From a virus, in the UHGV virus genome UHGV-0025826: a DNA stretch of 41,937 nt; one strand, 5' to 3'. The notes beneath the pieces were generated by a model. It was not told the DNA's origin, searched no databases, and saw only the letters and a program-made list of their open reading frames with translations. Below, in pieces: positions 832-34,745 of the stretch (position 1 is the first letter of the stretch; each line of letters starts with the position of its first letter). Both the position numbers and the translations under genes were made by a program.

Positions 832-1512
832 GCCAGATTCTCTGGTCGTTTGTTAAACACGAATATTTTTAAAAGCTCTGGAAAATATATCCCAACACCA
901 GGGACAAAAAAGATAAGGGTCATTGCCTCTGGTGGCGGTGGCGGCGGCGGTGGGGTTCCTGAAACAACAGAAAATCAGCAGGCAACAGCCGGAGCTGGAT
1001 TGAGCGGCGCATTTATTGAAGCATTTTTCGAGGTTGATAATGATTTCGAAGTCAACGTTATTATCGGTGCTGCAGGTAAAGGTGGGGGAGCCGGAAGAAA
1101 TTCAGGTAGTGAAGGTGGCACAACTTATTTCGGTTCCATGATAACTGCACCTGGTGGTACAGGCGGTGGCGCGGGGGGAGCATCTGCAAACACATCATAT
1201 ATTCAGGGTATTTCATGGGGTGCCAGTCCGACATCGTCCGGTACTGTACTAAGAGCATTTCGCTGTAGTGCAAAAACACCAGGAGCAATGGTTATCTCTG
1301 TTAAAGCTGTAGCAGGTGGTACCGGGGGGGATACACCATTAGGTTCAGGCGGTATAGGTGGTGCAAGTTCTTCATCATTCAGCGGACGTGGTGGTGGTAA
1401 AGCTGAGGGCTTTGGTGCTGGCGGAGGCGGAGCCTGCGCACCTGCTGGAAGTGAGGCTCAATCGGGAGGTGACGGTGCCCCGGGAATAGTTATTGTTGAG
1501 GAGTATGCCTGA
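814..1512 (+). CDS. Alternative tail fibre C-terminal domain (Gly-rich), silent in this orientation
   Basis: Frame is open from a stop at 811-813 with no ATG or RBS; begins GLGEAR directly after the crossover core, the same six residues that follow the core in the minus-strand fibre gene. Confidence 0.55.
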   Translation, partial: KVGLGEARFSGRLLNTNIFKSSGKYIPTPGTKKIRVIASGGGGGGGGVPETTENQQATAGAGLSGAFIEAFFEVDNDFEVNVIIGAAGKGGGAGRNSGSEGGTTYFGSMITAPGGTGGGAGGASANTSYIQGISWGASPTSSGTVLRAFRCSAKTPGAMVISVKAVAGGTGGDTPLGSGGIGGASSSSFSGRGGGKAEGFGAGGGGACAPAGSEAQSGGDGAPGIVIVEEYA

Positions 1513-1778
1513 TGAGTAATTTTGCTCTGATTGAACATGGCGTGGTGAAAAATATTATTATCTGGGATGGAGAGGGTGATTTATTCTCTAATTGCGAAAT
1601 TATAAATATTGATCATATAGATGCAGGCGTCGGTTGGTTCTATTCTGACGGAGAGTTTATAGCACCACCGGAACCGGAAATGACTGAATATGATGTTGGT
1701 AATATCGACGCGGTGATGGAAGCAGATACCAGCACCGCGCCGGGGGTTATCTGGCCAGTTCCACCTGAGATGGTTTAA
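1512..1778 (+). CDS. Putative tail fibre assembly/chaperone protein of the silent orientation
   Basis: 88 aa; start overlaps the upstream stop (TGATG); 3' end overlaps the minus-strand partner convergently; call is by position. Confidence 0.35.
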   Translation: MSNFALIEHGVVKNIIIWDGEGDLFSNCEIINIDHIDAGVGWFYSDGEFIAPPEPEMTEYDVGNIDAVMEADTSTAPGVIWPVPPEMV

Positions 1779-21607: not shown

Positions 21608-22168
21608 ATGAAATACTCACAGCAAGAAAAACTACAGATCATGATGCTCAGTGATATTCACCGAGCATTAGAAATTGAAAACTCATTTGATCCTGACCTC
21701 ATTGACGAAGCAGTGAGCACGGATAACTACTGGGCTTTATCCTGGGAATACCCAGGCCTTCAAGATGAAGAAGAGGAGACCCCCTGGGAAGTCCAGCTTT
21801 TCGTTGATACCTATGATATGTATGACATTCTCCAATACACATACGAACGATTCAGTGCGGAAGACAAAGCAGAGGTTGCCAAATCTATTCGTAATTTCGA
21901 TGAGAAATTATCACTCACATTCCCCGGATTTGACGGTAACAACGAATCAAAGTTTCTTTTGATTGGTAGTTTATTGAAACGAATGGGACGGTTTAGCGGC
22001 AAAGACGATCTCACCCGGAACTCTCACATGCCCTCTGTTGCAATTTACCAACGTATGCTTGAAGTTTTCCTTCCTGCCAGAGCTAAGAATTGGGTTCACA
22101 ATGTGGGCATTACTAAACATGATTTTATCGATACACTCAACGCGAGAGTGCATCCAGAAAATCGTTAA
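21608..22168 (+). CDS. YfbU-family (UPF0304) protein; opposite-strand moron between lysis and packaging genes
   Basis: 186 aa; recalled E. coli YfbU shares DxYxMY..L, FLGFD-like and a C-terminal YQRML.V segment (here VDTYDMYDIL, TFPGFDG, YQRMLEVF). Confidence 0.5.
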   Translation: MKYSQQEKLQIMMLSDIHRALEIENSFDPDLIDEAVSTDNYWALSWEYPGLQDEEEETPWEVQLFVDTYDMYDILQYTYERFSAEDKAEVAKSIRNFDEKLSLTFPGFDGNNESKFLLIGSLLKRMGRFSGKDDLTRNSHMPSVAIYQRMLEVFLPARAKNWVHNVGITKHDFIDTLNARVHPENR

Positions 22169-22173
22169 ACGTT

Positions 22174-22195
22174 AATGCCCGCAAATGCGGGCATT
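22174..22195. terminator. Bidirectional terminator hairpin between convergent YfbU-like and Rz genes
   Basis: Palindrome aatgcccgcaaatgcgggcatt with AT-rich flanks on both sides. Confidence 0.5.
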
Positions 22196-22721
22196 ATTCA
22201 TCATGGCGCCTTATTACTTTGTCGTAGGTGCGCTCACAGGTATTTCCGGCGACATAACGCTCATCAGCCTCTTTTGCGAATTTTCCCGCCAGATCGTCAG
22301 CTTCGCTGAGCAACTGGGCGAGCAATATTCCGGCCTCGGCTTTTGCCTGGCTTGTTGCTGCAATTGCGGAAATTCTGCCTGTTTCACTTGTTGCGAGCTG
22401 CCGTTGTATTTCGGCGAGCTGCTGTTGCAACCCACTGCGAGCACGCTTAGCAGCGTTAGCATCAGCCTGTACTTTTGCCAGTTCTTCATCGGCTTTCTCT
22501 CGTTCTTCATCTACGGCCCGCTGGCGGCGCTGCTCTTCTGCTCTTTCGGTTACTTCACGCTGCAATGTAGTGGTCGCATCAGTAAGGTCACGTTGTGCCC
22601 ACTGCAATTTCCAGGATGAGTCCGCCTCCTGATACCCGCGTGAATAACACCAGTACGCGACCGCGCATAACAAAAAAGCCACCAGCAGTATTTCTGCCAG
22701 CGGCTTCCAGTAAGCCCTCAC
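22194..22721 (-). CDS. i-spanin (Rz-like)
   Basis: Start set to GTG at 22721 overlapping the endolysin stop (GTGA); N-terminal TM (LAEILLVAFLLCAVAYW) then long coiled coil. Confidence 0.6.
   Translation of the reverse strand: MRAYWKPLAEILLVAFLLCAVAYWCYSRGYQEADSSWKLQWAQRDLTDATTTLQREVTERAEEQRRQRAVDEEREKADEELAKVQADANAAKRARSGLQQQLAEIQRQLATSETGRISAIAATSQAKAEAGILLAQLLSEADDLAGKFAKEADERYVAGNTCERTYDKVIRRHDE
22214..22489 (-). CDS. o-spanin (Rz1-like lipoprotein) embedded in the +1 frame of Rz
   Basis: MKNWQKYRLMLTLLSVLAVGC: basic n-region, hydrophobic core and lipobox-like AVGC; fully nested in the Rz gene; exact start uncertain. Confidence 0.45.
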   Translation of the reverse strand: MKNWQKYRLMLTLLSVLAVGCNSSSPKYNGSSQQVKQAEFPQLQQQARQKPRPEYCSPSCSAKLTIWRENSQKRLMSVMSPEIPVSAPTTK

Positions 22722-23624: not shown

Positions 23625-24677
23625 TTATTCCCCTGTTAACGCCCTTATTTCCTCCACCGTCTGGCTAAACCTGTCCTCCTCGAGTTCAACGCCGATAGCC
23701 TGGCGGCCAAGTTCCAGCGCGATTTTCACGGTCGAACCGGACCCCATAAAGAAATCAGCCACCACATCACCAGGCTTACTGCTGGCGTTGATGATCTGCC
23801 GCAACATGTCAGCGGGTTTTTCGCATGGGTGTTTACCTGGGTAAAACTGAACGGGTTTATGTGTCCAGACGTCGGTATAAGGAACGGATACGGAAACAGA
23901 GAAATGCCGCCGAAGCGATTTGTACTCTTCGAGCAGCTCTGAATACTTGCGATTTAACGAATGCCACATAGCCACCAGCTGGTGGTGTGGTGTTGCCAGT
24001 TCGCCGTTCTGGTGCTTTTCGATGGCTACCTGCGTGAAAAGGGACTGAAGATTCCGGTAGTCTAATTCATTCGGTAATTGCCACTGGCTACCGCTGAACC
24101 AGTGAGACACCATGTTCTTCTTTCCAGTCGCATCGGCTATTTGTTTTGAGGTTATGCCAAGCGCTTCACGTGCATCCCGGAAATAAGAAATTAGGGGAGT
24201 CATTACATGCTGCTTCAGCTCGCTTCCCTTCTCCGCGTAACCGTCGCTCTTTGGTTTATACGGCCCCTGGTAATGCTCAGCGAAGAGGATGCGCTCTGTT
24301 GCAGGGAAGTAAGAGCGCAGACTCTCTTTATTACAGCCATTCCAGCGGCCCGACGGTTTAGCCCAGATGATGTGGTTCAGGACGTTGAACCGCTCACGCA
24401 TCATGATCTCAATGTCTGCCGCCAGGCGGTGACCGGAGAAAAGATAAAGACTGCCAGCAGGTTTAAGCACTCGCCAGAATTGTGCGAGGCACATATCAAG
24501 CCAGCGAAGATAATCCTCATCCCCTTTCCACTGATTGTCCCAGCCGTTGGGTTTCACTTTGAAGTACGGCGGATCCGTGACTATCAGGTCAATGGAGTTA
24601 TCAGGGAGAGTGGCGATGTATTGCAGGCTATCAGCGTTGACTAACTCAACACTGTTTATATTTACAGTATTTTTCAT
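23625..24677 (-). CDS. DNA methyltransferase, beta-class (N6-adenine or N4-cytosine), no adjacent endonuclease recognised
   Basis: 350 aa; DPPY motif near the N-terminus (LIVTDPPYF) and FxGxG near the C-terminus (DFFMGSGST). Confidence 0.85.
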   Translation of the reverse strand: MKNTVNINSVELVNADSLQYIATLPDNSIDLIVTDPPYFKVKPNGWDNQWKGDEDYLRWLDMCLAQFWRVLKPAGSLYLFSGHRLAADIEIMMRERFNVLNHIIWAKPSGRWNGCNKESLRSYFPATERILFAEHYQGPYKPKSDGYAEKGSELKQHVMTPLISYFRDAREALGITSKQIADATGKKNMVSHWFSGSQWQLPNELDYRNLQSLFTQVAIEKHQNGELATPHHQLVAMWHSLNRKYSELLEEYKSLRRHFSVSVSVPYTDVWTHKPVQFYPGKHPCEKPADMLRQIINASSKPGDVVADFFMGSGSTVKIALELGRQAIGVELEEDRFSQTVEEIRALTGE

Positions 24678-24819: not shown

Positions 24820-24869
24820 ACCTCCGAAATGGAGGTGCGAAGGCATAAAAAAACCCCGCTTAAGCGAGG
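24820..24869 (-). terminator. Two tandem rho-independent terminators downstream of the Q-proximal two-gene cassette
   Basis: Minus-strand CCUCGCUUAAGCGGGG then U7 (24847-24869), followed by ACCUCCAUUUCGGAGGU then AUUUUG (24820-24836). Confidence 0.5.
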
Positions 24870-24886
24870 TTATTTCGAATAGATAA

Positions 24887-28294: not shown

Positions 28295-28504
28295 TCACCC
28301 CCAGACCTTTTGCCGAAAGGTTCTTGGCGTACGCGCCGGATGTTCGCATTCAGGTAATTTTGCACTGACAGTCCAGGTGATGTTGTCGCGGTTCAGGCTG
28401 CGTTCTACCGTGGCGCCACGACGGCGATAACTCGCCACCAACTCGTCTGCCTGTTCGGTTGTGCATTCGTGATGGTGGAACCAGGAATATTTCATGGTCA
28501 TCAC
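28295..28504 (-). CDS. Hypothetical nin-region protein
   Basis: 69 aa; ATGA-coupled to the upstream gene. Confidence 0.35.
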   Translation of the reverse strand: MMTMKYSWFHHHECTTEQADELVASYRRRGATVERSLNRDNITWTVSAKLPECEHPARTPRTFRQKVWG

Positions 28505-29100
28505 CCCGCAAAGCTCATGAGCTGCGATGCAGCGTTTTCCGCTTCACGCTGGTCCTTGAATGCCCGGGACAATACCCAGCGCCACAGAACATCAAGCGCA
28601 GCTTTGTACAGCTGCTGGAACTCGGTTTCGTCCATGTTGGCGAAAGCTATGCTGCGGGGATGTTTGCGGAGGGTGCCGTCAGGCAGCTGAATGGCGTCGT
28701 AATGGCCGGACTCAATAGTGACCCATGCACGATATGCATCGAATGACTTACAGGCGCAGATGCTACCAGTACGCTTATCGGCGATGCGGTCCAGATATTG
28801 CTCAGCAGCATCCAGGAGTGCTGCTTCACTTCCCGCGAATGAGGCAAGGAACTTGGCATAGCCGGTTACCAGCTTGCGTTCGTTGGAGGAGATTGCCCCG
28901 CCGGTGGGTTCCCAGTATTCGAAACCGAGATTGAGTAACGCGAAGAAACGACGGTGAAAGGCCGGGTTGCGTACCTGCCGGAACTCAGCCACCAGTACGG
29001 AGCCGAGTTTGATTTTTGATTGCAGTAAATCACTGGTCTCCGGCGTAGCGGGGATCAGGATTCCTGAGGAATGCTTGATGAGTTGTAGTTCGTGCGCCAT
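28501..29100 (-). CDS. Hypothetical nin-region protein (possibly DUF1367-like)
   Basis: 199 aa; family name is a weak recollection. Confidence 0.35.
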   Translation of the reverse strand: MAHELQLIKHSSGILIPATPETSDLLQSKIKLGSVLVAEFRQVRNPAFHRRFFALLNLGFEYWEPTGGAISSNERKLVTGYAKFLASFAGSEAALLDAAEQYLDRIADKRTGSICACKSFDAYRAWVTIESGHYDAIQLPDGTLRKHPRSIAFANMDETEFQQLYKAALDVLWRWVLSRAFKDQREAENAASQLMSFAG

Positions 29101-29134
29101 GGTTTCTCTCCGTGGCGCAGTAGGTTACGGTTGT

Positions 29135-29383
29135 TCAGACCGTTGATTTCATATTATCAGAAGGTGGGGTTACCCGGTAGCCGAGACGGTGAATAAACTG
29201 CATAAAACCATTAGGAGTAAAGACCTCTTCATCATCCAGCAAAGGCCGCATAGAAACCATGCCATTGACGCGATAAATTAGATGCCTGCCCGATGAAGGA
29301 AAGCTAAACACCACGCAGCCGTCAGACCTTCTTACAATGTCATACCAGTTGTCTTCTGACGTTTGCAAAGCTGAATCACTCAC
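29135..29383 (-). CDS. Hypothetical 82-aa protein downstream of the DinI-like gene; candidate antirepressor
   Basis: GTG start with GGGAGAA 7 nt upstream; first gene after the LexA-box-controlled DinI-like gene. Confidence 0.4.
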   Translation of the reverse strand: MSDSALQTSEDNWYDIVRRSDGCVVFSFPSSGRHLIYRVNGMVSMRPLLDDEEVFTPNGFMQFIHRLGYRVTPPSDNMKSTV

Positions 29384-29500
29384 ATTTATGTTCTCCCTTC
29401 GAGCGACTAACAGACGCGATTAAAGATTGTCGGCAGCTGCATCAGAGGGTTACGCAAATTGCGGTATTCTGAAAAATGCGCGCCAGCCTTAAGCGCAATT

Positions 29501-29734
29501 CTAATAAAACCAGTCGTCAGCGCTTTCCCAGGTATCCTGGAGGATTGATTCAATTTTCTTTTTATCGTCCTTGTCACCACCAAAAACACTTAACCCATCG
29601 GCCCCGGCACGGCGGATTGTGAGCCTGCAATTGTCATAGTGATCATTCAGGCGCTTAAGCAGTTCTTTCTCCAGTGCTGGTACTGCGCCTTTAGGAAGTT
29701 CTTTCATGCGATCAATGGTTAATTCAACTTTCAT
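29501..29734 (-). CDS. dinI: DinI-like protein (DNA-damage-inducible protein I family)
   Basis: MKVELTIDR...LSVFGGDKDDKKKIESILQDTWESADDWFY aligns along its length with recalled E. coli DinI (...LSVIGATKEDKQRISEILQETWESADDWF); start set to ATG at 29734 with GGGGG upstream. Confidence 0.8.
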   Translation of the reverse strand: MKVELTIDRMKELPKGAVPALEKELLKRLNDHYDNCRLTIRRAGADGLSVFGGDKDDKKKIESILQDTWESADDWFY

Positions 29735-29752
29735 AATGGCCCCCATTGCATT

Positions 29753-29772
29753 TACTGTTTTTTTATACAGTA
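29753..29772. promoter_or_regulatory. LexA (SOS) box overlapping the DinI-like promoter
   Basis: TACTGTTTTTTTATACAGTA is a perfect CTGT-N8-ACAG palindrome 19 nt upstream of the ATG; candidate minus-strand -10 TATACT (29769-29774) and -35 TTGATC overlap it. Confidence 0.6.
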
Positions 29773-29832
29773 TACCTATGCGCGGAAATGATCAACGCTT
29801 TAAGAGCACAAATTGTTAATTTTCTGTCAGTA

Positions 29833-29862
29833 GTAAAAAAAGAAAACCCGCCGTAGCGGGTT
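29833..29862 (-). terminator. Rho-independent terminator upstream of the DinI-like promoter
   Basis: Minus-strand AACCCGCUACGGCGGGUU followed by UUCUUUUUUU. Confidence 0.45.
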
Positions 29863-29879
29863 GAATTAGCGATGTTTTA

Positions 29880-30020
29880 TTACGCCGCTATTTGTTTCTG
29901 CTGACAAAGCTCCTGTAGGTTAGCCCTAACCAGCGCCTCAGCGAGCTGATGATTGGACAGCATTAACGCAATGGGTAATAGAAACCACAGAATGCACGAA
30001 ATGGCGGTGGTATTCGCCAT
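29880..30020 (-). pseudogene. 46-codon ORF whose last 17 codons duplicate the C5-methyltransferase-like 3' end at 30468-30532
   Basis: C-terminus ..AEALVRANLQELCQQKQIAA versus ..AEALVRANLPELCQQKEIAA in the second copy. Confidence 0.25.
29894..29943. repeat. Imperfect direct repeat, copy 1 (about 50 bp, roughly 6 mismatches)
   Basis: tttctgctgacaaagctcctgtaggttagccctaaccagcgcctcagcga versus copy 2 at 30483-30532. Confidence 0.6.
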
Positions 30021-30131
30021 CTGTGACAGGTTGAATATTGCTCGAATTGTATTGTTTGCACTTTAACGTTTCTGTTGTAGTGCCGGATGCATGCCACCGT
30101 ATGTTCAGGACGATGGCATGCATATTATGGA

Positions 30132-30368
30132 TTACGATTTATCCATTCCCAGGGGATTAGGGTGAATTCCACTTACATGCCAGAACGCATGCTCTCTATT
30201 CAACTGATTTCCCTTTGGTATCAGGAAGCCATACGTCCCAGATTTAAAAGTGGCATGAGCGCAGATTAGACTTTCTCCTTCAAAGCTATACTCAGTCCCT
30301 TCAGGGATTAGAGAGTCAGTCTTGATCAGGTGAACAGTTCCGTTGATAGGGATCATGTAATGGTGCAT
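30132..30368 (-). CDS. Hypothetical 78-aa protein between the two repeat copies
   Basis: GAGGAG 5 nt upstream of the ATG; no family recognised. Confidence 0.45.
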   Translation of the reverse strand: MHHYMIPINGTVHLIKTDSLIPEGTEYSFEGESLICAHATFKSGTYGFLIPKGNQLNREHAFWHVSGIHPNPLGMDKS

Positions 30369-30467
30369 TTTAGGCTCCTCGTGTTGTGAAGAGCCTAATT
30401 ATATCAGGTTTGAATCTACGTCATTGAAGTAGCAGGATTTGTTACACCATGTTCTGAAACTCGGACA

Positions 30468-30708
30468 TTAAGCTGCGATCTCTTTCTGCTGACAAAGCTC
30501 CGGTAAATTAGCCCTCACCAGTGCCTCGGCGAATGGCGGCGGAACTGCGTTGCCACAACGCGCAACCTGCTTGTCCTTCGCGTACTTCTGCCCCCGATAG
30601 TCCTGATCGATGATGTACCACTCCGGGAAGCCCTGCCAGTTTGGCGTTGTTCAACCCTGGGTTGTTGCGCAGGGCTGCCAGCACCTGCTCACGGATTGTT
30701 ATGTTCAT
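30468..30708 (-). pseudogene. Frameshifted 3' remnant of a C5-cytosine DNA methyltransferase (motif IX/X-like)
   Basis: One frame (30468-30650) encodes ..WQGFPEWYIIDQDYRGQKYAKDKQVARCGNAVPPPFAEAL.., resembling GFPD..Y and GNAV of C5-MTases; an ATG 1 nt after the P stop opens a different frame (MNITIREQ..) with no possible N-terminal catalytic domain. Confidence 0.4.
30483..30532. repeat. Imperfect direct repeat, copy 2
   Basis: tttctgctgacaaagctccggtaaattagccctcaccagtgcctcggcga. Confidence 0.6.
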
Positions 30709-30709
30709 G

Positions 30710-31399
30710 TCACACCATCCCGTTCGACTTGTTGCGGTTGTACTTGGCCAGCAGCAGCTGGATCGGCGTCGGCCCTTGCTCGGCAGCTGGTGCGGCAATA
30801 GCCCGGCGTACCGGCGGCACTGGCTTACCCTCGGTGACGCGCCTTTCCCACATGTCCAGCAGATCGCCTGCCTCGCGTGCCAGTTCACCATGCGTTAACT
30901 GGCGCTCGGTGCTGCGGTGGCGCAATTCTACGCAAATGTGGTACATGACCGGCTGCGACCATGGAAATTGCTCGCTGGAGATGAATTCGAACGAGCGGTT
31001 ACGCCAGTCCCAGTATTCGGCGATCACCTGGTCAACGTTGACGCCCAGCGCGCCGCCGCTCTGCTTGCACCAGGCGACGAACTGGCCCGGCGACGGCAGG
31101 AATGGGCGCTCCTGGCGGCGGGCAATGCGCATGCCGGCATCGACCTGAGCCATGGTGTGGATCCCGTTCTCCTGAAACGCCAGCAGCCACTGACGGCGGA
31201 ATTCGTTCAGGTCTTCCTGGGTGCGGAAGTTCGCCATGCTGGCCGGGAACGCGGCGCGCAGCTCGTTGAACAGCTTGTTGAATACCTGCGCCACCTGCTC
31301 GACCGGCGCGCACTCCTGGTACTGCTCTGGCAGGTTATGGGCCATGCGGCTCATCTGCTCGCGGTCGTGGTTACGCATCTGCTCTGCAAGAGATTTCAT
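30710..31399 (-). CDS. P: Replication protein P (helicase loader, lambda P family)
   Basis: 229 aa; near-collinear with recalled lambda P (MKxxAxQMxNxDREQMxRxAxNxPEQY...VAQ..N..F..L.A.FPAS.AN...Q...NE.RRQW.LAF.ENGI.TM.QV.AGMR.ARRQ.RPFLPSPGQFVAWC). Confidence 0.85.
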   Translation of the reverse strand: MKSLAEQMRNHDREQMSRMAHNLPEQYQECAPVEQVAQVFNKLFNELRAAFPASMANFRTQEDLNEFRRQWLLAFQENGIHTMAQVDAGMRIARRQERPFLPSPGQFVAWCKQSGGALGVNVDQVIAEYWDWRNRSFEFISSEQFPWSQPVMYHICVELRHRSTERQLTHGELAREAGDLLDMWERRVTEGKPVPPVRRAIAAPAAEQGPTPIQLLLAKYNRNKSNGMV

Positions 31400-32304
31400 C
31401 GGATCACCCCATAGGCCCAGTCAGTGTTGTTGAAGTCCAGATCTGGCTTGACAGCGCGCTGCTCACCTCCGGCGTTACGCTGCATTGTCAGCTTGTCCCA
31501 CTGCTTACGCAGGCTTTCGGGACTCAGGATGTTGGTCTGCCAGAAGTGGTGTTTGCTAGCCCAGTCATACAGCGCGCAGATGTCCTGGTGCGACCGGTCG
31601 TCTATCTGGCGCATCAGGCGAACAGTGTTAGACCAGGAGGTCATGTCCGGGGCTTTGCAGGTTGGGTTAATCAGCTTCACCCTGGAGGAAATCCACTTAG
31701 CTGTCTCGAGGTCTTCAGCAGAGCCCCACTTCGCACCGGATGGTGTGTAGACCGCAGCTTCAGGATGAGTTGATAAAAATTTCTTCAGACGTGCGTCAGA
31801 GGATTCGTCAGAATTCTCGGACGAAGATCTTTTAATACTGTTCTTGTTCTTGTATTGGGTGTCTACCGTTTTCGGGAAGGTTATTCCTGATTTCGGGAAG
31901 GATTTTCCCGTTTTCGGGAATTTTCTTCCCGTTTCCGGTTTGTCTAAAATCCATGCTGAAAGGTCAGTGTTTACACCGACGATTTTCATCATGCCCTGCT
32001 TCTGTGAAAAGATGATTTTGCGTTCTGCGAGAGACTTAAGCGCGTCCGATACATGCGTATCGCTCAGGCCCGTAAGCTCGGCAATAACCGTATTTGTCAC
32101 GCGGTCCTGTTTCTTGTTCCAGCCGTAGGTAAGCCAGATCACCGCCTCAAAACATTGCCATTCCCGGCCTGACAGTCTCAGGCGAGGCTTAAGCTGTTGG
32201 ATCTCGTTAGCGACCTTGGTATACCCGTTCGACAGGTCGGCCATACGACCTCCCGGTTGTTCGGTTTTATTTGGGAATTTGAATATTTCAGCGGTATTTG
32301 ACAT
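31396..32304 (-). CDS. O: Replication initiator O (lambda O family)
   Basis: Start set to ATG at 32304 with GGAGAA upstream; N-terminal LTYGWNKKQDRVTNTVIAELTGL resembles lambda O KTYGWNKPMDRITDSQLSEITKL; iterons inside the gene; stop overlaps P start. Confidence 0.75.
   Translation of the reverse strand: MSNTAEIFKFPNKTEQPGGRMADLSNGYTKVANEIQQLKPRLRLSGREWQCFEAVIWLTYGWNKKQDRVTNTVIAELTGLSDTHVSDALKSLAERKIIFSQKQGMMKIVGVNTDLSAWILDKPETGRKFPKTGKSFPKSGITFPKTVDTQYKNKNSIKRSSSENSDESSDARLKKFLSTHPEAAVYTPSGAKWGSAEDLETAKWISSRVKLINPTCKAPDMTSWSNTVRLMRQIDDRSHQDICALYDWASKHHFWQTNILSPESLRKQWDKLTMQRNAGGEQRAVKPDLDFNNTDWAYGVIR
31867..31944. repeat. Origin-like iterons inside the O gene
   Basis: Four direct repeats spaced about 20-21 bp (three with core tttcgggaa, a fourth degenerate tttccgg) with an AT-richer stretch on the low-coordinate side. 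Confidence 0.5.
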
Positions 32305-32388
32305 ACTGTTCTCCGCAATTACGCACAGTTTTTGCACCTGAAAGCCGTTGGTGTTCGAGCACCGCGGCTTTCGCCATTTCTGAGCCCG

Positions 32389-32946
32389 TCATAGCGCACC
32401 ACCCAGCATCGTTGTAACCATCGCCATAATGGGCGCCACAGAATCAGGTCCGTCCAGGTAGAGCTTGGCTACGATGCTCTCGCTGATTTCCTTCATCCGT
32501 TCGTGTCTGGGGGCTTTGAGGACGACAGCCTGTATCGCCTCAGCGTCTTCTTTCACCGACCTGGCGACACGAACCGCAAAGCAGTCGTGCTTAATCACGC
32601 GATCCCGGTACGCCAGCGGCAGAACCGAAATTATTACCGGCGCCAGCTGCTCGACGTTCGCCCGGTAGGCCGGTGATTTCTCGTGGTTGTCCAGCCAGCG
32701 AAACAGCTTCACGTTCCACACATCGGCGCTGCCGGTCATGTCAATGCTGTCAAGCTCGGCCTGTTCGGCAGCCTCTTTAATCGCCAGAGCGACCGCCACG
32801 CGACCCTCTGCCGCCGCCCAGGCGCGGACGGCAGAACAGATAGCCCGGTGATCGATCGGCTGGCCTTCAGCCTCACTGTGTTGATACTGGAATTTCAGGT
32901 GCTCTGATGGCGCTCTGTTATTCTGTTGAAAAGAAAGTGTTTGCAT
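32389..32946 (-). CDS. YdaT/CII-like regulatory protein
   Basis: 185 aa; first gene after the cro-like gene; NVKLFRWLDNHEKSPAYRANVEQLAPVIISVLPLAYRDRV resembles recalled Rac YdaT. Confidence 0.45.
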   Translation of the reverse strand: MQTLSFQQNNRAPSEHLKFQYQHSEAEGQPIDHRAICSAVRAWAAAEGRVAVALAIKEAAEQAELDSIDMTGSADVWNVKLFRWLDNHEKSPAYRANVEQLAPVIISVLPLAYRDRVIKHDCFAVRVARSVKEDAEAIQAVVLKAPRHERMKEISESIVAKLYLDGPDSVAPIMAMVTTMLGGAL

Positions 32947-32957
32947 TGTCAGTGCTC

Positions 32958-33176
32958 CTACTTTGGTAATCCGTCAGTGGGATTTGGATAGAGATCAGGG
33001 CGCAGCTCGTGGGGGGTTACGCCTGTCATTTTGAAAATCGGGAAGATATAGCTTGGCGGGACGATCCCTTGGTCACGATTCTTCCAATGACTTACAGACA
33101 TACTCGTCACACCAAGCGCGATGCTGAGCTTTCTGGCAGAGCCAGCGGCTTTAATTGCTTTATCGAGTGCGGACAT
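32958..33176 (-). CDS. Cro-like HTH regulator (YdaS/Cro family)
   Basis: 72 aa; HTH ARKLSIALGVTSMSVSHW and ELRPDLY motif; divergent from the repressor; AGGAGAA RBS. Confidence 0.65.
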   Translation of the reverse strand: MSALDKAIKAAGSARKLSIALGVTSMSVSHWKNRDQGIVPPSYIFPIFKMTGVTPHELRPDLYPNPTDGLPK

Positions 33177-33278
33177 GTGCTTCTCCTGCTTATTGATAGC
33201 AGAAGTAAACCACAGATTTATACTTCATGCAAACTTTGGATTTATTGCGTGCATAAACCAAATATTTACAATGACCAT
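33177..33278. promoter_or_regulatory. Divergent immunity promoter/operator region
   Basis: Inverted repeat CTGCT-N7-AGCAG at 33186-33202; recurring gcaWaaac-like half-sites; plus-strand -35 TTGCGT (33245-33250) and -10 TACAAT (33267-33272) ending 6 nt before the repressor ATG. Confidence 0.45.
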
Positions 33279-33668
33279 ATGAGAAAAGAAGAACCCAACC
33301 TCGTTCTGGTGGAGCGCCTTACTGAGATCACTGATCGCGGCGTTACCAAAGCAGACATGGCAAGAATAGCTGGAGTCACCCCTCAGGCCGTAAACGGCTG
33401 GTTCAAAAAAGGCGTGATTAGTAAGAAATCGGCACTGGCCATAGCCGACGCTGTTGGTATTTCTGTCGCCTGGCTACTCGGTGAAGACGTTGGGGAGAAA
33501 GACGGTCTCAAACCGGACGAACAGCGTTTGCTCGAGCTCTACCGCCAGTTACCGGAAGAAGAGCAGCAGAACATGCTCCGCATTTTTGCGCTTCGCCTGA
33601 AAGAGTTAGATGAGCTGTACGAGAAGTACATGAAGGGTCGGATTCGATCGCAAGGTGAGCAAACCTAA
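33279..33668 (+). CDS. Prophage repressor (XRE-family HTH, no LexA-like peptidase domain)
   Basis: 129 aa from ATG at 33279; HTH ITDRGVTKADMARIAGVTPQAVNGWFKKG; C-terminal coiled-coil-like segment; divergent from cro-like gene. Confidence 0.65.
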   Translation: MRKEEPNLVLVERLTEITDRGVTKADMARIAGVTPQAVNGWFKKGVISKKSALAIADAVGISVAWLLGEDVGEKDGLKPDEQRLLELYRQLPEEEQQNMLRIFALRLKELDELYEKYMKGRIRSQGEQT

Positions 33669-33732
33669 ACCAGTAGTATCTAATTCCATGTAATAAAAAT
33701 ATTTCAAGATTTAATATCTTCTGGAGGATTCG

Positions 33733-34014
33733 GTGTCTAAAGAAACAACCGTCGAACTTATGCATCTTAATGATGTAATCGAAGCGAAAAATTTCATCGA
33801 GACCAATGCTGACGGTGTCGTAACAATCGGCACACAAAATGCCGGTTACGAAGTTTACAATTTTGTGTTCCTGAATAGCAGCCCGATCATCGGTACGGAT
33901 AATGCGGATATAGTCGTCAAGGGCATGCAGCGAACCAAAGTTGTGTCTGTGACTTTAAGCAAACAAAAGGCTTATGATTTTTATCAATCCTTAAAAAGTA
34001 TGTTTGAGGAATAA
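33733..34014 (+). CDS. Hypothetical 93-aa protein, cassette B gene 1 (rexA/sieB position)
   Basis: GTG start with GGAGGA upstream; directly downstream of and co-oriented with the repressor; looks AT-rich by eye. Confidence 0.5.
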   Translation: MSKETTVELMHLNDVIEAKNFIETNADGVVTIGTQNAGYEVYNFVFLNSSPIIGTDNADIVVKGMQRTKVVSVTLSKQKAYDFYQSLKSMFEE

Positions 34015-34020
34015 TAATTG

Positions 34021-34542
34021 ATGGATGCGGCTCAATCATCTCTTGGTGAAGGGAAGTTATTGATTGCATATTCAGACCATAGCGGAGCTACAGTAGGCTT
34101 AGAGTTTTCATCAGTAGCTTCGAGCCAAGCAACCTTCCTTATGGGTGCTTGTAGTTTTGCCGCTTCGGATAAACAAAAACGGATTGTCACATCAGTTGCT
34201 ATGGATGATACTGAAATCATTCATACGTCAACTGAAGATGGAGGTGACGACATGGAAAAGAGATTGGCTATTCTTGAGGTTGAAGTTGCCCACATCAAGA
34301 AAGATGTTGCCGAGATAAAAAACACAGTTTCAAAAGTTGATACGACAGTGAATTCACTGGACAAAAATATGGCTGTAGTTTTGGAGAGGCTGTCTAGTAT
34401 CAAAGAGTCTGTAGACAAAAAGCCCTCATCAGACACAGTGGACAAGAAAATCTCTGATGCTAAATTGGCGATTCTCTTAGGTGTCCCTGCGATTATCGCC
34501 ATTGGTACAGGGCTGTACAAAGCTTTTATGCACTTCTTTTAG
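34021..34542 (+). CDS. Hypothetical tail-anchored membrane protein with coiled coil, cassette B gene 2
   Basis: ATG 7 nt after gene 1 stop; heptad-like region (LAILEVEVAHIKKDVAEIKNTVSKVDTTVNSL...) then C-terminal hydrophobic AILLGVPAIIAIGTGLY. Confidence 0.5.
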   Translation: MDAAQSSLGEGKLLIAYSDHSGATVGLEFSSVASSQATFLMGACSFAASDKQKRIVTSVAMDDTEIIHTSTEDGGDDMEKRLAILEVEVAHIKKDVAEIKNTVSKVDTTVNSLDKNMAVVLERLSSIKESVDKKPSSDTVDKKISDAKLAILLGVPAIIAIGTGLYKAFMHFF

Positions 34543-34616
34543 TCAGATTTGGTCAATACGCCTGAGTTATAAGGCTCTCAGCTACTAACTCTGTCGCCTT
34601 CCCCGAACCTTCTCAT

Positions 34617-34642: not shown

Positions 34643-34716
34643 GCCTGCGATTCTGCAGACGTGTCACAAAACCCAGCCACATAAACCTCAGATTTACAAT
34701 TAATACCAACCCTAAG

Positions 34717-34745
34717 TTGACATATATATAAACCAGTGATTTAAT
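34717..34745 (+). promoter_or_regulatory. Candidate early-left (PL-like) promoter
   Basis: TTGACA (34717-34722), 17-nt spacer, TTTAAT (34740-34745), just downstream of the terminator. Confidence 0.4.

What the first reader, a model, noticed from the sequence alone, without database searches (positions are those of the whole stretch)
29135..29795. LexA-box-controlled DinI-like gene followed by a small ORF: candidate SOS-dependent induction module
A perfect CTGT-N8-ACAG palindrome (29753..29772) overlaps the predicted promoter of a clear DinI homologue. The prophage repressor is only 129 aa with an HTH and no peptidase S24 domain, so it is unlikely to self-cleave on RecA activation. Phages with such repressors (186, Gifsy-type) use a LexA-controlled antirepressor, and in Gifsy prophages that antirepressor is co-transcribed with a dinI homologue. 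The 82-aa ORF at 29135..29383 is therefore a candidate antirepressor.
Basis: partly seen in the sequence, partly recalled or inferred. Interest (0 to 1): 0.65.

Follow-up and report, generated by a model that had tools for sequence, protein, structure and literature searches.

The report
Known SOS-triggered prophage antirepressor switch

Summary
On the minus strand lie, in order:
- a rho-independent terminator (29862..29845);
- a near-consensus LexA box, TACTGTATAAAAAAACAGTA (29772..29753), overlapping the -10 region;
- a dinI homologue (29734..29501);
- a GTG-initiated 82-aa ORF (29383..29135);
- a DUF1367/irsA homologue (29100..28501).

This is the terminator, LexA box, dinI, antirepressor, irsA operon that Lemire et al. 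(2011) showed drives induction of Gifsy prophages.

I used that paper's cloning primers to find gfoA and gfoR on a Salmonella prophage contig. The 82-aa ORF is 93% identical to GfoA. The 129-aa HTH-only repressor is 62% identical to GfoR. No S24 peptidase is found anywhere in the window.

The LexA box sits at the same position in 62 of 65 related loci. It differs by one base from the E. coli umuDC SOS box. The ORF is under purifying selection (dN/dS about 0.1).

Untested here: LexA binding, SOS induction, and whether this antirepressor inactivates this particular repressor.

Novelty is nil apart from an annotation gap, since every database calls the protein "hypothetical". A second LexA-like box inside a phage methylase gene (24650..24669) was noticed in passing.

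The parts
29845..29862 (-). Rho-independent terminator (AACCCGCTACGGCGGGTT followed by a T-run) that insulates the SOS operon from upstream O-P/early-right transcription
   Evidence: Terminator scan, 7-bp stem with 5 GC pairs and TTCTTTTTTT tail. Lemire et al. report terminator-like palindromes just upstream of the LexA box in all Gifsy prophages.
29767..29795 (-). Putative sigma-70 promoter of the dinI operon: -35 TTGATC (29795..29790), then either N15 and TATACT (29774..29769) or N17 and TACTGT (29772..29767)
   Evidence: Read from the sequence. TTGATC-N17-TACTGT is the same pair of hexamers and the same spacing as upstream of E. coli umuD. The phage 186 p95 record annotates TACTGT as the -10. 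The generic promoter scan reports nothing here, so this is inferred.
29753..29772 (-). LexA (SOS) box TACTGTATAAAAAAACAGTA, overlapping the -10 region and 18 nt upstream of the dinI ATG
29501..29734 (-). dinI homologue (77 aa), first gene of the operon
   Evidence: PF06183 E = 4.3e-26; phrog_189; annotated as DinI family in E. coli VE-F5 and mEp237.
29384..29500 (-). 117-nt dinI-antirepressor spacer with a hairpin and T-run (29497..29479), possibly a partial terminator, and the AAGGGAG ribosome-binding site (29399..29393)
   Evidence: Terminator-like hit. The spacer is almost identical in mEp237, SEN34, Gifsy-1 (14028 type) and LT2 Gifsy-1/2, right up to the ribosome-binding site. The RNA fold is not better than shuffles, z = 0.38.
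29135..29383 (-). 82-aa GTG-initiated ORF: orthologue of the Gifsy-1/Gifsy-3 antirepressor GfoA/GfhA
   Evidence: 93% identity to primer-defined GfoA; dN/dS 0.08 to 0.14; phrog_340, 'unknown function'; named 'hypothetical protein' in all sources.
28501..29100 (-). DUF1367 protein (199 aa), homologue of irsA, third gene of the Gifsy SOS operon
   Evidence: PF07105 E = 3e-92. mEp237 gp50 is annotated 'similar to STM1020 [Gifsy-2]'. Operon order follows Lemire et al..
33279..33668 (+). Prophage repressor, 129 aa, with an N-terminal HTH and a conserved C-terminal helical half; GfoR/GtgR/DicA family, no peptidase domain. This is the presumed target of the antirepressor.
   Evidence: Pfam HTH_3 only; 62% identity to GfoR; 26% to the LT2 Gifsy repressor, E = 3e-7; 28% to DicA, E = 5e-12.
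32958..33176 (-). Cro-like (YdaS-type) regulator, divergent from the repressor
   Evidence: PF15943 E = 1.4e-13; phrog_35.
32389..32946 (-). cII-like (YdaT-type) regulator
   Evidence: PF06254 E = 1.5e-17; phrog_163, CII-like.
33206..33268 (.). Candidate right operators: TAAACCACAGATTTA (33206..33220) and TAAACCAAATATTTA (33254..33268) in the repressor-cro intergenic region
   Evidence: Direct-repeat family. The pattern search finds 4 good copies, only at these two control regions. Inferred; not tested for binding.
34682..34743 (.). Candidate left operators: TAAACCTCAGATTTA (34682..34696) and TAAACCAGTGATTTA (34729..34743), upstream of the kil/recE/recT early-left operon
   Evidence: kil, RecE and RecT assignments.

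Best explanation
This is a Gifsy-type, LexA-controlled antirepressor module in an E. coli lambdoid prophage.

In the lysogen, host LexA sits on the box that overlaps the -10 region of the dinI promoter and keeps the dinI, ORF82, irsA operon silent. The terminator just upstream blocks read-through into it.

DNA damage activates RecA and LexA cleaves itself. The operon is then transcribed and the 82-aa protein, a GfoA orthologue, accumulates. It binds the 129-aa HTH repressor dimer, which has no peptidase domain and cannot self-cleave, and strips it from its operators (candidates at 33206..33268 and 34682..34743). This derepresses the early-left and early-right operons and starts lytic growth. 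Because the repressor is sequestered and not destroyed, induction should be reversible.

Shown here: sequence identity, gene order, box position and conservation, absence of an S24 domain, and purifying selection. Shown elsewhere, for the Gifsy orthologues: LexA dependence, sufficiency of the antirepressor, and physical binding. Inferred: that all of this transfers to this prophage, and that ORF82 is cognate to this repressor.
For: - Gene order matches the Gifsy operon: terminator, LexA box, dinI, non-ATG small ORF, DUF1367/irsA (against 14, 19, 20).
- ORF82 is 93% identical to GfoA, identified through the published primers on contig L012. That contig also carries the gfoR primer sites.
- The repressor is 62% identical to GfoR over 117 aa, E = 2e-54, and has HTH_3 only. 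No S24 peptidase is found in the window.
- The LexA box is highly significant, one base from the umuDC box, and positionally conserved in 62 of 65 loci.
- In a distant homologue that lacks dinI, a LexA box still precedes the antirepressor gene (L077).
- In 21 other loci, antirepressors at least 90% identical to ORF82 lie 4 to 7 kb from divergently oriented GfoR-family repressors of several immunity types. Across six of these types, the C-terminal half is better conserved than the HTH half in five and equal in the sixth (78-92% against 53-92%). This agrees with the published finding that GfoA inactivates both GfoR and the heteroimmune GfhR.
- A single -10 SNP in PdinI-gfoA abolishes Gifsy-1 induction (Owen et al. 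2017).
- dN/dS is 0.08 to 0.14.
Against: - No experiment was done on this prophage.
- The resident repressor is only 62% identical to GfoR (53% in the HTH half). Antirepressor specificity is known to be selective: GtgR is insensitive to GfoA.
- One related locus (L043) pairs a GfoA-type antirepressor with a repressor only 32% identical to the window's, so co-residence does not prove cognate pairing.
- The generic promoter scan finds no promoter.
- A hairpin with a T-run between dinI and ORF82 could attenuate read-through.
- The AlphaFold model is only of moderate confidence and matches no solved fold, so the binding mode is unknown.
Confidence: 0.85

Rival explanations
1. The module is a working SOS operon, but ORF82 is not cognate to the resident 129-aa repressor. 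It acts only in trans on other GfoR/GfhR-type prophages, or on none, and this prophage is induced by another route or is not SOS-inducible.
For: Antirepressor and repressor pairing is selective in Salmonella: GtgR ignores GfoA, and Gifsy-2 responds to FsoA from Fels-1. The repressor is only 62% identical to GfoR. Locus L043 shows a GfoA-type gene next to a very different repressor.
Against: GfoA is documented to inactivate two heteroimmune repressors. The C-terminal half of the window's repressor is 78% identical to that of GfoR. No other antirepressor-like gene and no cleavable repressor was found in the window. Close relatives of this phage, mEp237 and SEN34, are viable temperate phages with the same module.
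Confidence: 0.1
2. The LexA box controls only dinI, a modulator of RecA filaments. ORF82 is transcriptionally separated by the hairpin with a T-run at 29497..29479 and has an unrelated function.
For: There is a terminator-like hairpin between dinI and ORF82. ORF82 has no Pfam family, and its PHROG is labelled 'unknown function'.
Against: The same spacer, almost base for base, separates dinI from gftA and from gfoA in the Gifsy prophages, where co-transcription and LexA dependence were shown. ORF82 is 93% identical to GfoA. The hairpin fold is not better than shuffles. L077 has a LexA box directly upstream of the homologue, with no dinI between them.
Confidence: 0.03
3. The repressor is inactivated directly, by RecA-stimulated cleavage or by a host protease as in lambda, and the dinI/ORF82 operon is accessory.
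For: The repressor contains an Ala-Gly dipeptide (residues 31-32, inside the HTH), seen directly in the sequence.
Against: There is no Peptidase_S24 domain in the repressor or anywhere in the window. Homologous Gifsy repressors are not cleaved on induction.
Confidence: 0.02

Closest known systems
Gifsy-1 / Gifsy-3 GfoA/GfhA with GfoR/GfhR, the LexA-controlled dinI-gfoA-irsA operon of Salmonella Typhimurium ATCC14028 (Lemire et al. 2011, PMC3121763; Owen et al. 2017, PMC5322425)
   Same: Same gene order, same upstream terminator, and the LexA box at the same distance from dinI. Both antirepressor genes have a non-ATG start, and the antirepressor is 93% identical. The repressor is of the same family and length (62% identical). 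The dinI-antirepressor spacer is nearly identical.
   Different: The host is E. coli. The start codon is GTG, not TTG. Six of 82 residues differ. The repressor belongs to a different immunity type, with its HTH half 53% identical. The spacer of the LexA box differs (ATAAAAAAA against GTTTATATA). Nothing has been tested experimentally in this phage.
Gifsy-2 GftA with GtgR (also the LT2 Gifsy-1 copy)
   Same: Same operon architecture, LexA box and intergenic spacer. It has a small antirepressor starting with GUG and a short HTH repressor that shares the LLxLFxQLPExE motif.
   Different: The antirepressor shows no BLASTP similarity and only a weak collinear profile match (hhalign E = 3e-4, probability 39%). 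It falls in a different PHROG, 4847 against 340. The repressor is only 26% identical.
Phage 186 Tum (p95 SOS operon)
   Same: A LexA box overlaps the -10 of a promoter outside the immunity region. The product is an antirepressor that blocks DNA binding by a non-cleaved repressor, and it is linked to a DinI-like sequence.
   Different: Tum is a single 146-aa protein whose second half is DinI-like. There is no detectable similarity to ORF82 (hhalign E = 0.26). The phage is P2-like and has an unrelated CI.
Qin prophage Rem with DicA (E. coli K-12; Ragunathan and Vanderpool 2023, PMC10448788)
   Same: A short, non-cleavable HTH repressor of the same broad family (DicA is 28% identical to the window's repressor, E = 5e-12) is relieved by a small protein of about 83 aa encoded between the replication genes and Q.
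   Different: Rem shows no significant similarity to the ORF82 family (hhalign E = 0.22). The paper states that the condition that induces Rem production is not known.

Membership tests
Gifsy-type LexA-controlled antirepressor module (GfoA/GfhA family) | Small protein (about 70 to 85 aa) homologous to GfoA | tested here: met
   76/82 identical, E = 1e-58, to the GfoA ORF defined by published primers pp866/pp867 on contig L012.
Gifsy-type LexA-controlled antirepressor module (GfoA/GfhA family) | Gene lies outside the immunity region, between a dinI homologue and an irsA (DUF1367) homologue, downstream of the replication genes | tested here: met
   Order is O, P..., dinI (29734..29501), ORF82 (29383..29135), DUF1367 (29100..28501), NinG, Q. 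ORF82 lies 3.9 kb from the repressor.
Gifsy-type LexA-controlled antirepressor module (GfoA/GfhA family) | Non-canonical (GUG/UUG) start codon of the antirepressor gene | tested here: met
   GTG at 29383..29381, with a ribosome-binding site 9 nt upstream. Orthologues start with TTG or GTG. The paper describes non-canonical starts.
Gifsy-type LexA-controlled antirepressor module (GfoA/GfhA family) | LexA box at the promoter upstream of dinI, preceded by a rho-independent terminator | tested here: met
   Box at 29772..29753, terminator at 29862..29845. The position is conserved in 62 of 65 loci, including Gifsy-1 and Gifsy-2.
Gifsy-type LexA-controlled antirepressor module (GfoA/GfhA family) | Short HTH repressor homologous to GfoR/GtgR, with no self-cleavage (S24) domain | tested here: met
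   129 aa, HTH_3 only. 62% identical to GfoR and 26% to the LT2 Gifsy repressor. No S24 peptidase in the window.
Gifsy-type LexA-controlled antirepressor module (GfoA/GfhA family) | LexA binds the box, and the operon is induced by DNA damage in a LexA-cleavage-dependent way | not testable with these tools
   Needs EMSA or ChIP, a reporter fusion, and a lexA3(Ind-) host. Shown only for the Gifsy orthologues.
Gifsy-type LexA-controlled antirepressor module (GfoA/GfhA family) | The antirepressor binds the resident repressor, releases it from DNA, and is sufficient for induction | not testable with these tools
   Needs ectopic expression, pull-down and EMSA. Only indirect support here: co-occurrence with GfoR-family repressors in 21 other loci, and a conserved C-terminal half.
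DinI family (PF06183) | Score above the Pfam gathering threshold over the whole domain | tested here: met
   91.5 bits against a 24.2 cut-off; profile positions 1-63 of 63 matched.
Phage 186 Tum-type antirepressor | Sequence homology to the antirepressor (N-terminal) part of Tum, or an antirepressor-DinI fusion | tested here: not met
   hhalign probability 0.2%, E = 0.26. dinI and ORF82 are separate genes, in the opposite order.
Lambda CI / LexA-type self-cleaving repressors | C-terminal Peptidase_S24 domain | tested here: not met
   No S24 hit in Pfam for the repressor. tblastn with LexA, lambda CI and UmuD gives nothing better than E = 0.41 in the window.

The most novel reading that the evidence does not exclude
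The GfoA-type antirepressor may recognise the conserved C-terminal half (DGLKxDExRLLELYRQLPEEEQ...LRLKELDELY) shared by GfoR-family repressors, and not their variable HTH half. If so, one nearly invariant LexA-controlled antirepressor allele (at least 90% identical across Salmonella, E. coli and Citrobacter prophages) would act as a master key that co-induces several heteroimmune prophages in E. coli polylysogens. That would extend the Salmonella 'crosstalk' to E. coli and give a testable structural basis for it.
Probability: 0.3. Interest if true: 0.4.

Novelty: already known. Interest (0 to 1): 0.15.

Why it matters
It matters little as a discovery. The mechanism was published in 2011 for proteins 93% and 62% identical to these, and that paper already noted that the dinI-irsA region is conserved in Escherichia prophages.

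It has practical value for annotation. The antirepressor is called 'hypothetical protein' in RefSeq/PGAP, UniRef, phage GenBank records and PHROGs (phrog_340, 'unknown function'), although it occurs on more than 1000 contigs. About 1% of complete E. coli genomes carry this exact module (51 of 5426). Recognising it tells which prophages are SOS-inducible through LexA and not through repressor cleavage. It also suggests their induction may be reversible and open to cross-induction by co-resident prophages.

Tried and rejected
- BLASTP of ORF82 against the LT2 Gifsy-1/2 antirepressor GftA gave no similarity. This first looked like evidence against the hypothesis, until the paper showed that the LT2 Gifsy-1 copy is gftA and that GfoA (ATCC14028) is a different, distantly related protein.
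- A profile comparison with GftA gives only a weak collinear match. Comparisons with Tum and Rem give nothing.
- Pfam has no family for ORF82.
- There is no PDB sequence match.
- The AlphaFold model (pLDDT 68.9, four strands plus a C-terminal helix) has no Foldseek PDB match with E below 1.
- The exact 22-nt pp867 primer sequence is absent from all loci. Its first three bases are a non-annealing filler, and the 19-nt annealing part matches 47 loci.
- The generic promoter scan finds no promoter at the dinI gene or at the methylase gene.
- The RNA fold of the dinI-ORF82 spacer is no better than shuffles.
- A full profile search of 1.84 billion representative proteins found only 39 clusters. The family is therefore narrow, and the search did not link it to any other family.
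- A literature search for a LexA box at a phage methylase found nothing relevant.

Full report
**What is in the sequence**

The region is read on the minus strand. It holds a strong rho-independent terminator at 29862..29845. Next comes a -35-like TTGATC at 29795..29790. The 20-mer TACTGTATAAAAAAACAGTA follows at 29772..29753. A GGGGG ribosome-binding site and the dinI ATG at 29734 come next.

dinI ends at 29501. A 117-nt spacer follows, and then a GTG-initiated 82-codon ORF (29383..29135) preceded by AAGGGAG. After 34 nt comes a 199-aa ORF (29100..28501).

Pfam assigns the first gene to DinI (E = 4.3e-26) and the third to DUF1367 (E = 3e-92). It has nothing for the 82-aa ORF. PHROGs places that ORF in phrog_340, 'unknown function'.

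The surroundings are a complete lambdoid prophage:
- O and P replication genes, NinG and Q on one side;
- a YdaS-like cro, a YdaT-like cII, a 129-aa HTH protein, kil, recE, recT and an integrase on the other.

The 6.2-kb stretch searched (28400..34600) is 100% identical to a prophage in E. coli VE-F5. A 2.1-kb stretch around the module (28400..30500) is 95% identical to coliphage mEp237.

**Is the LexA box more than chance?**

The CTGT-N8-ACAG core occurs 3 times in the window against 0.54 expected. Matches to the 20-nt SOS consensus with at most 3 mismatches occur twice against 0.00 expected.

The box differs by a single base from the umuDC box of E. coli K-12, which I read from NC_000913. 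The flanking hexamers reproduce the umuDC arrangement, TTGATC-N17-TACTGT. The phage 186 record likewise annotates TACTGT as the -10 of its LexA-controlled p95 promoter.

I located dinI by tblastn in 65 loci fetched from viral contigs and phage genomes. In 62 of them a CTGT-N8-ACAG box lies 18 or 19 nt (35 nt in one locus) upstream of the dinI ATG. The box spacer varies while the half-sites are kept. [quoted passage not shown]

**Identifying the 82-aa ORF**

Lemire et al. 2011 (PMC3121763) showed that Gifsy prophages are induced through a LexA-controlled operon and not by repressor cleavage. The operon is dinI, antirepressor, irsA, and it lies outside the immunity region and is preceded by a terminator. 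The antirepressor genes start with non-canonical codons.

The LT2 Gifsy-1/2 antirepressor GftA shows no BLASTP similarity to ORF82. The paper explains why: LT2 Gifsy-1 carries a copy of gftA, whereas the ATCC14028 Gifsy-1 and Gifsy-3 antirepressors, GfoA and GfhA, are only distantly related to GftA.

I had no ATCC14028 sequence, so I used the paper's cloning primers. The gfoA forward primer anneals with GTAATTCAGCTTTGCAA. The window reads GTGATTCAGCTTTGCAA at the same place.

An exact-pattern scan of viral contigs returned 58 loci. Most encode a TTG-initiated 82-aa protein, MSNSALQKSEDSWYD.... Two contigs, L012 and L042, also carry exact matches to both gfoR primers about 4.4 kb away. They therefore hold the Gifsy-1 (14028-type) gfoR/gfoA pair.

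Against these, ORF82 is 76/82 identical (E = 1e-58). The window's 129-aa repressor is 62% identical to GfoR over 117 residues (E = 2e-54).

**Supporting evidence**

- ORF82 evolves under purifying selection, with dN/dS of 0.08 to 0.14 against four orthologues.
- The repressor has only an HTH_3 domain.
- The repressor aligns end to end with the LT2 Gifsy repressor (26%, E = 3e-7) and with DicA (28%, E = 5e-12). They share the LLELYRQLPEEE motif.
- In 21 other fetched loci, an antirepressor at least 90% identical to ORF82 lies 4 to 7 kb from a divergently oriented GfoR-family repressor. These repressors belong to several immunity types.
- For six of these repressor types, the C-terminal half is 78 to 92% identical to the window's, against 53 to 92% for the HTH half. 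It is the better conserved half in five types and equal in the sixth. This fits the published observation that GfoA inactivates both GfoR and the heteroimmune GfhR.
- In a distant homologue (L077, 53% identity) there is no dinI, yet a LexA box still lies about 140 nt upstream of the gene.
- Owen et al. 2017 (PMC5322425) showed that one -10 SNP in PdinI-gfoA abolishes Gifsy-1 induction.

**Likely mechanism**

LexA occupies the box over the -10 region and silences the operon. DNA damage leads to LexA self-cleavage, and dinI, ORF82 and irsA are transcribed. The ORF82 protein binds the repressor dimer and removes it from its operators, and the early operons fire.

Candidate operators are four copies of TAAACC-N4-ATTTA. 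Two lie between the repressor and cro (33206..33220, 33254..33268). Two lie upstream of the kil/recE operon (34682..34696, 34729..34743).

The non-ATG start, and possibly the hairpin with a T-run in the conserved dinI-ORF82 spacer, may keep basal antirepressor levels low. This is inference only, because the fold is not significant. LexA binding, induction and the ORF82-repressor interaction were not and could not be tested here.

**Comparison with known systems**

All sequence-level defining features of the Gifsy GfoA/GfhA module are met.

- The link to GftA is weak: hhalign E = 3e-4 with a collinear alignment.
- There is no detectable link to Tum of phage 186 or to Rem of Qin, although they work in the same way.
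- The protein family is narrow. Only 39 clusters at 50% identity, out of 1.84 billion representatives, match at E of 0.001 or better.
- The AlphaFold model (pLDDT 68.9) predicts four strands and a C-terminal helix, and it has no significant PDB match.

**Verdict**

The finding is a correct recognition of a published mechanism and not a discovery. What remains is an annotation gap: every source calls the protein 'hypothetical'. The module is present in 51 of 5426 complete E. coli genomes.

Noticed in passing
window 24650..24669 (minus strand: TACTGTAAATATAAACAGTG): This is a second near-consensus LexA box, the only other one in the window (chance expectation 0.00). It lies inside codons 3 to 9 of a 350-aa N6/N4 DNA methylase gene (23625..24677, minus strand; PF01555 E = 1.3e-42), downstream of Q and of a terminator at 24871..24852. 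It is kept in mEp460, Stx2c phages and phiNP, but the whole region is 91% identical, so conservation says little. The right half-site is lost in a Klebsiella phage. The promoter scan finds no promoter, and I found no literature on it. It could mean SOS control of a phage Dam-like methylase, or it could be a coding accident.
   Followed up: partly
window 33206..33220, 33254..33268, 34682..34696, 34729..34743: Four copies of TAAACC-N4-ATTTA occur as two pairs spaced 47 to 48 bp apart. They sit exactly at the repressor/cro intergenic region and upstream of the early-left (kil, recE, recT) operon. They are likely OR and OL operators of the 129-aa repressor.
   Followed up: partly
window 29384..29500, compared with L001, L002, L012 and L070: The 117-nt spacer between dinI and the antirepressor is almost identical in phages whose antirepressor genes are unrelated at the BLAST level (gfoA type against gftA type). 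Similarity ends at the ribosome-binding site. This suggests cassette-like exchange of antirepressor genes behind a fixed leader. The leader contains a hairpin with a T-run (29497..29479), but its fold is not significant.
   Followed up: partly
L077 1281..1296 and 1455..1694: A metagenomic homologue of the antirepressor (53% identical) has a LexA box about 140 nt upstream and no dinI gene in between. LexA control therefore follows the antirepressor, not dinI.
   Followed up: partly
L043 (IMG/VR contig): A GfoA-type antirepressor 90% identical to ORF82 sits in a prophage whose repressor is only 32% identical to the window's. By my own comparison of the two sequences, that repressor looks more like GtgR. 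The pair may be mismatched, or the antirepressor's specificity may be broader than published.
   Followed up: no
window 28501..29100: Phage annotations and phrog_319 label the DUF1367/irsA homologue 'NinB/Orf homologous recombination mediator', while Pfam and PGAP assign it to DUF1367. The NinB label may be a propagated misnomer.
   Followed up: no
window 33249..33668: PGAP calls the repressor at 139 aa from an upstream GTG, but the alignment with GfoR favours the ATG at 33279 (129 aa). Lemire et al. report two functional in-frame starts for GfhR, so two isoforms are possible here as well.
   Followed up: no
window 21608..22168 and 22185..22619 (plus strand): Two genes are oriented against the flow of the late operon, between the lysis and packaging genes. 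One has a YfbU domain (PF03887 E = 5.5e-12) and the other matches no family. They are possibly a moron or defence cargo.
   Followed up: no
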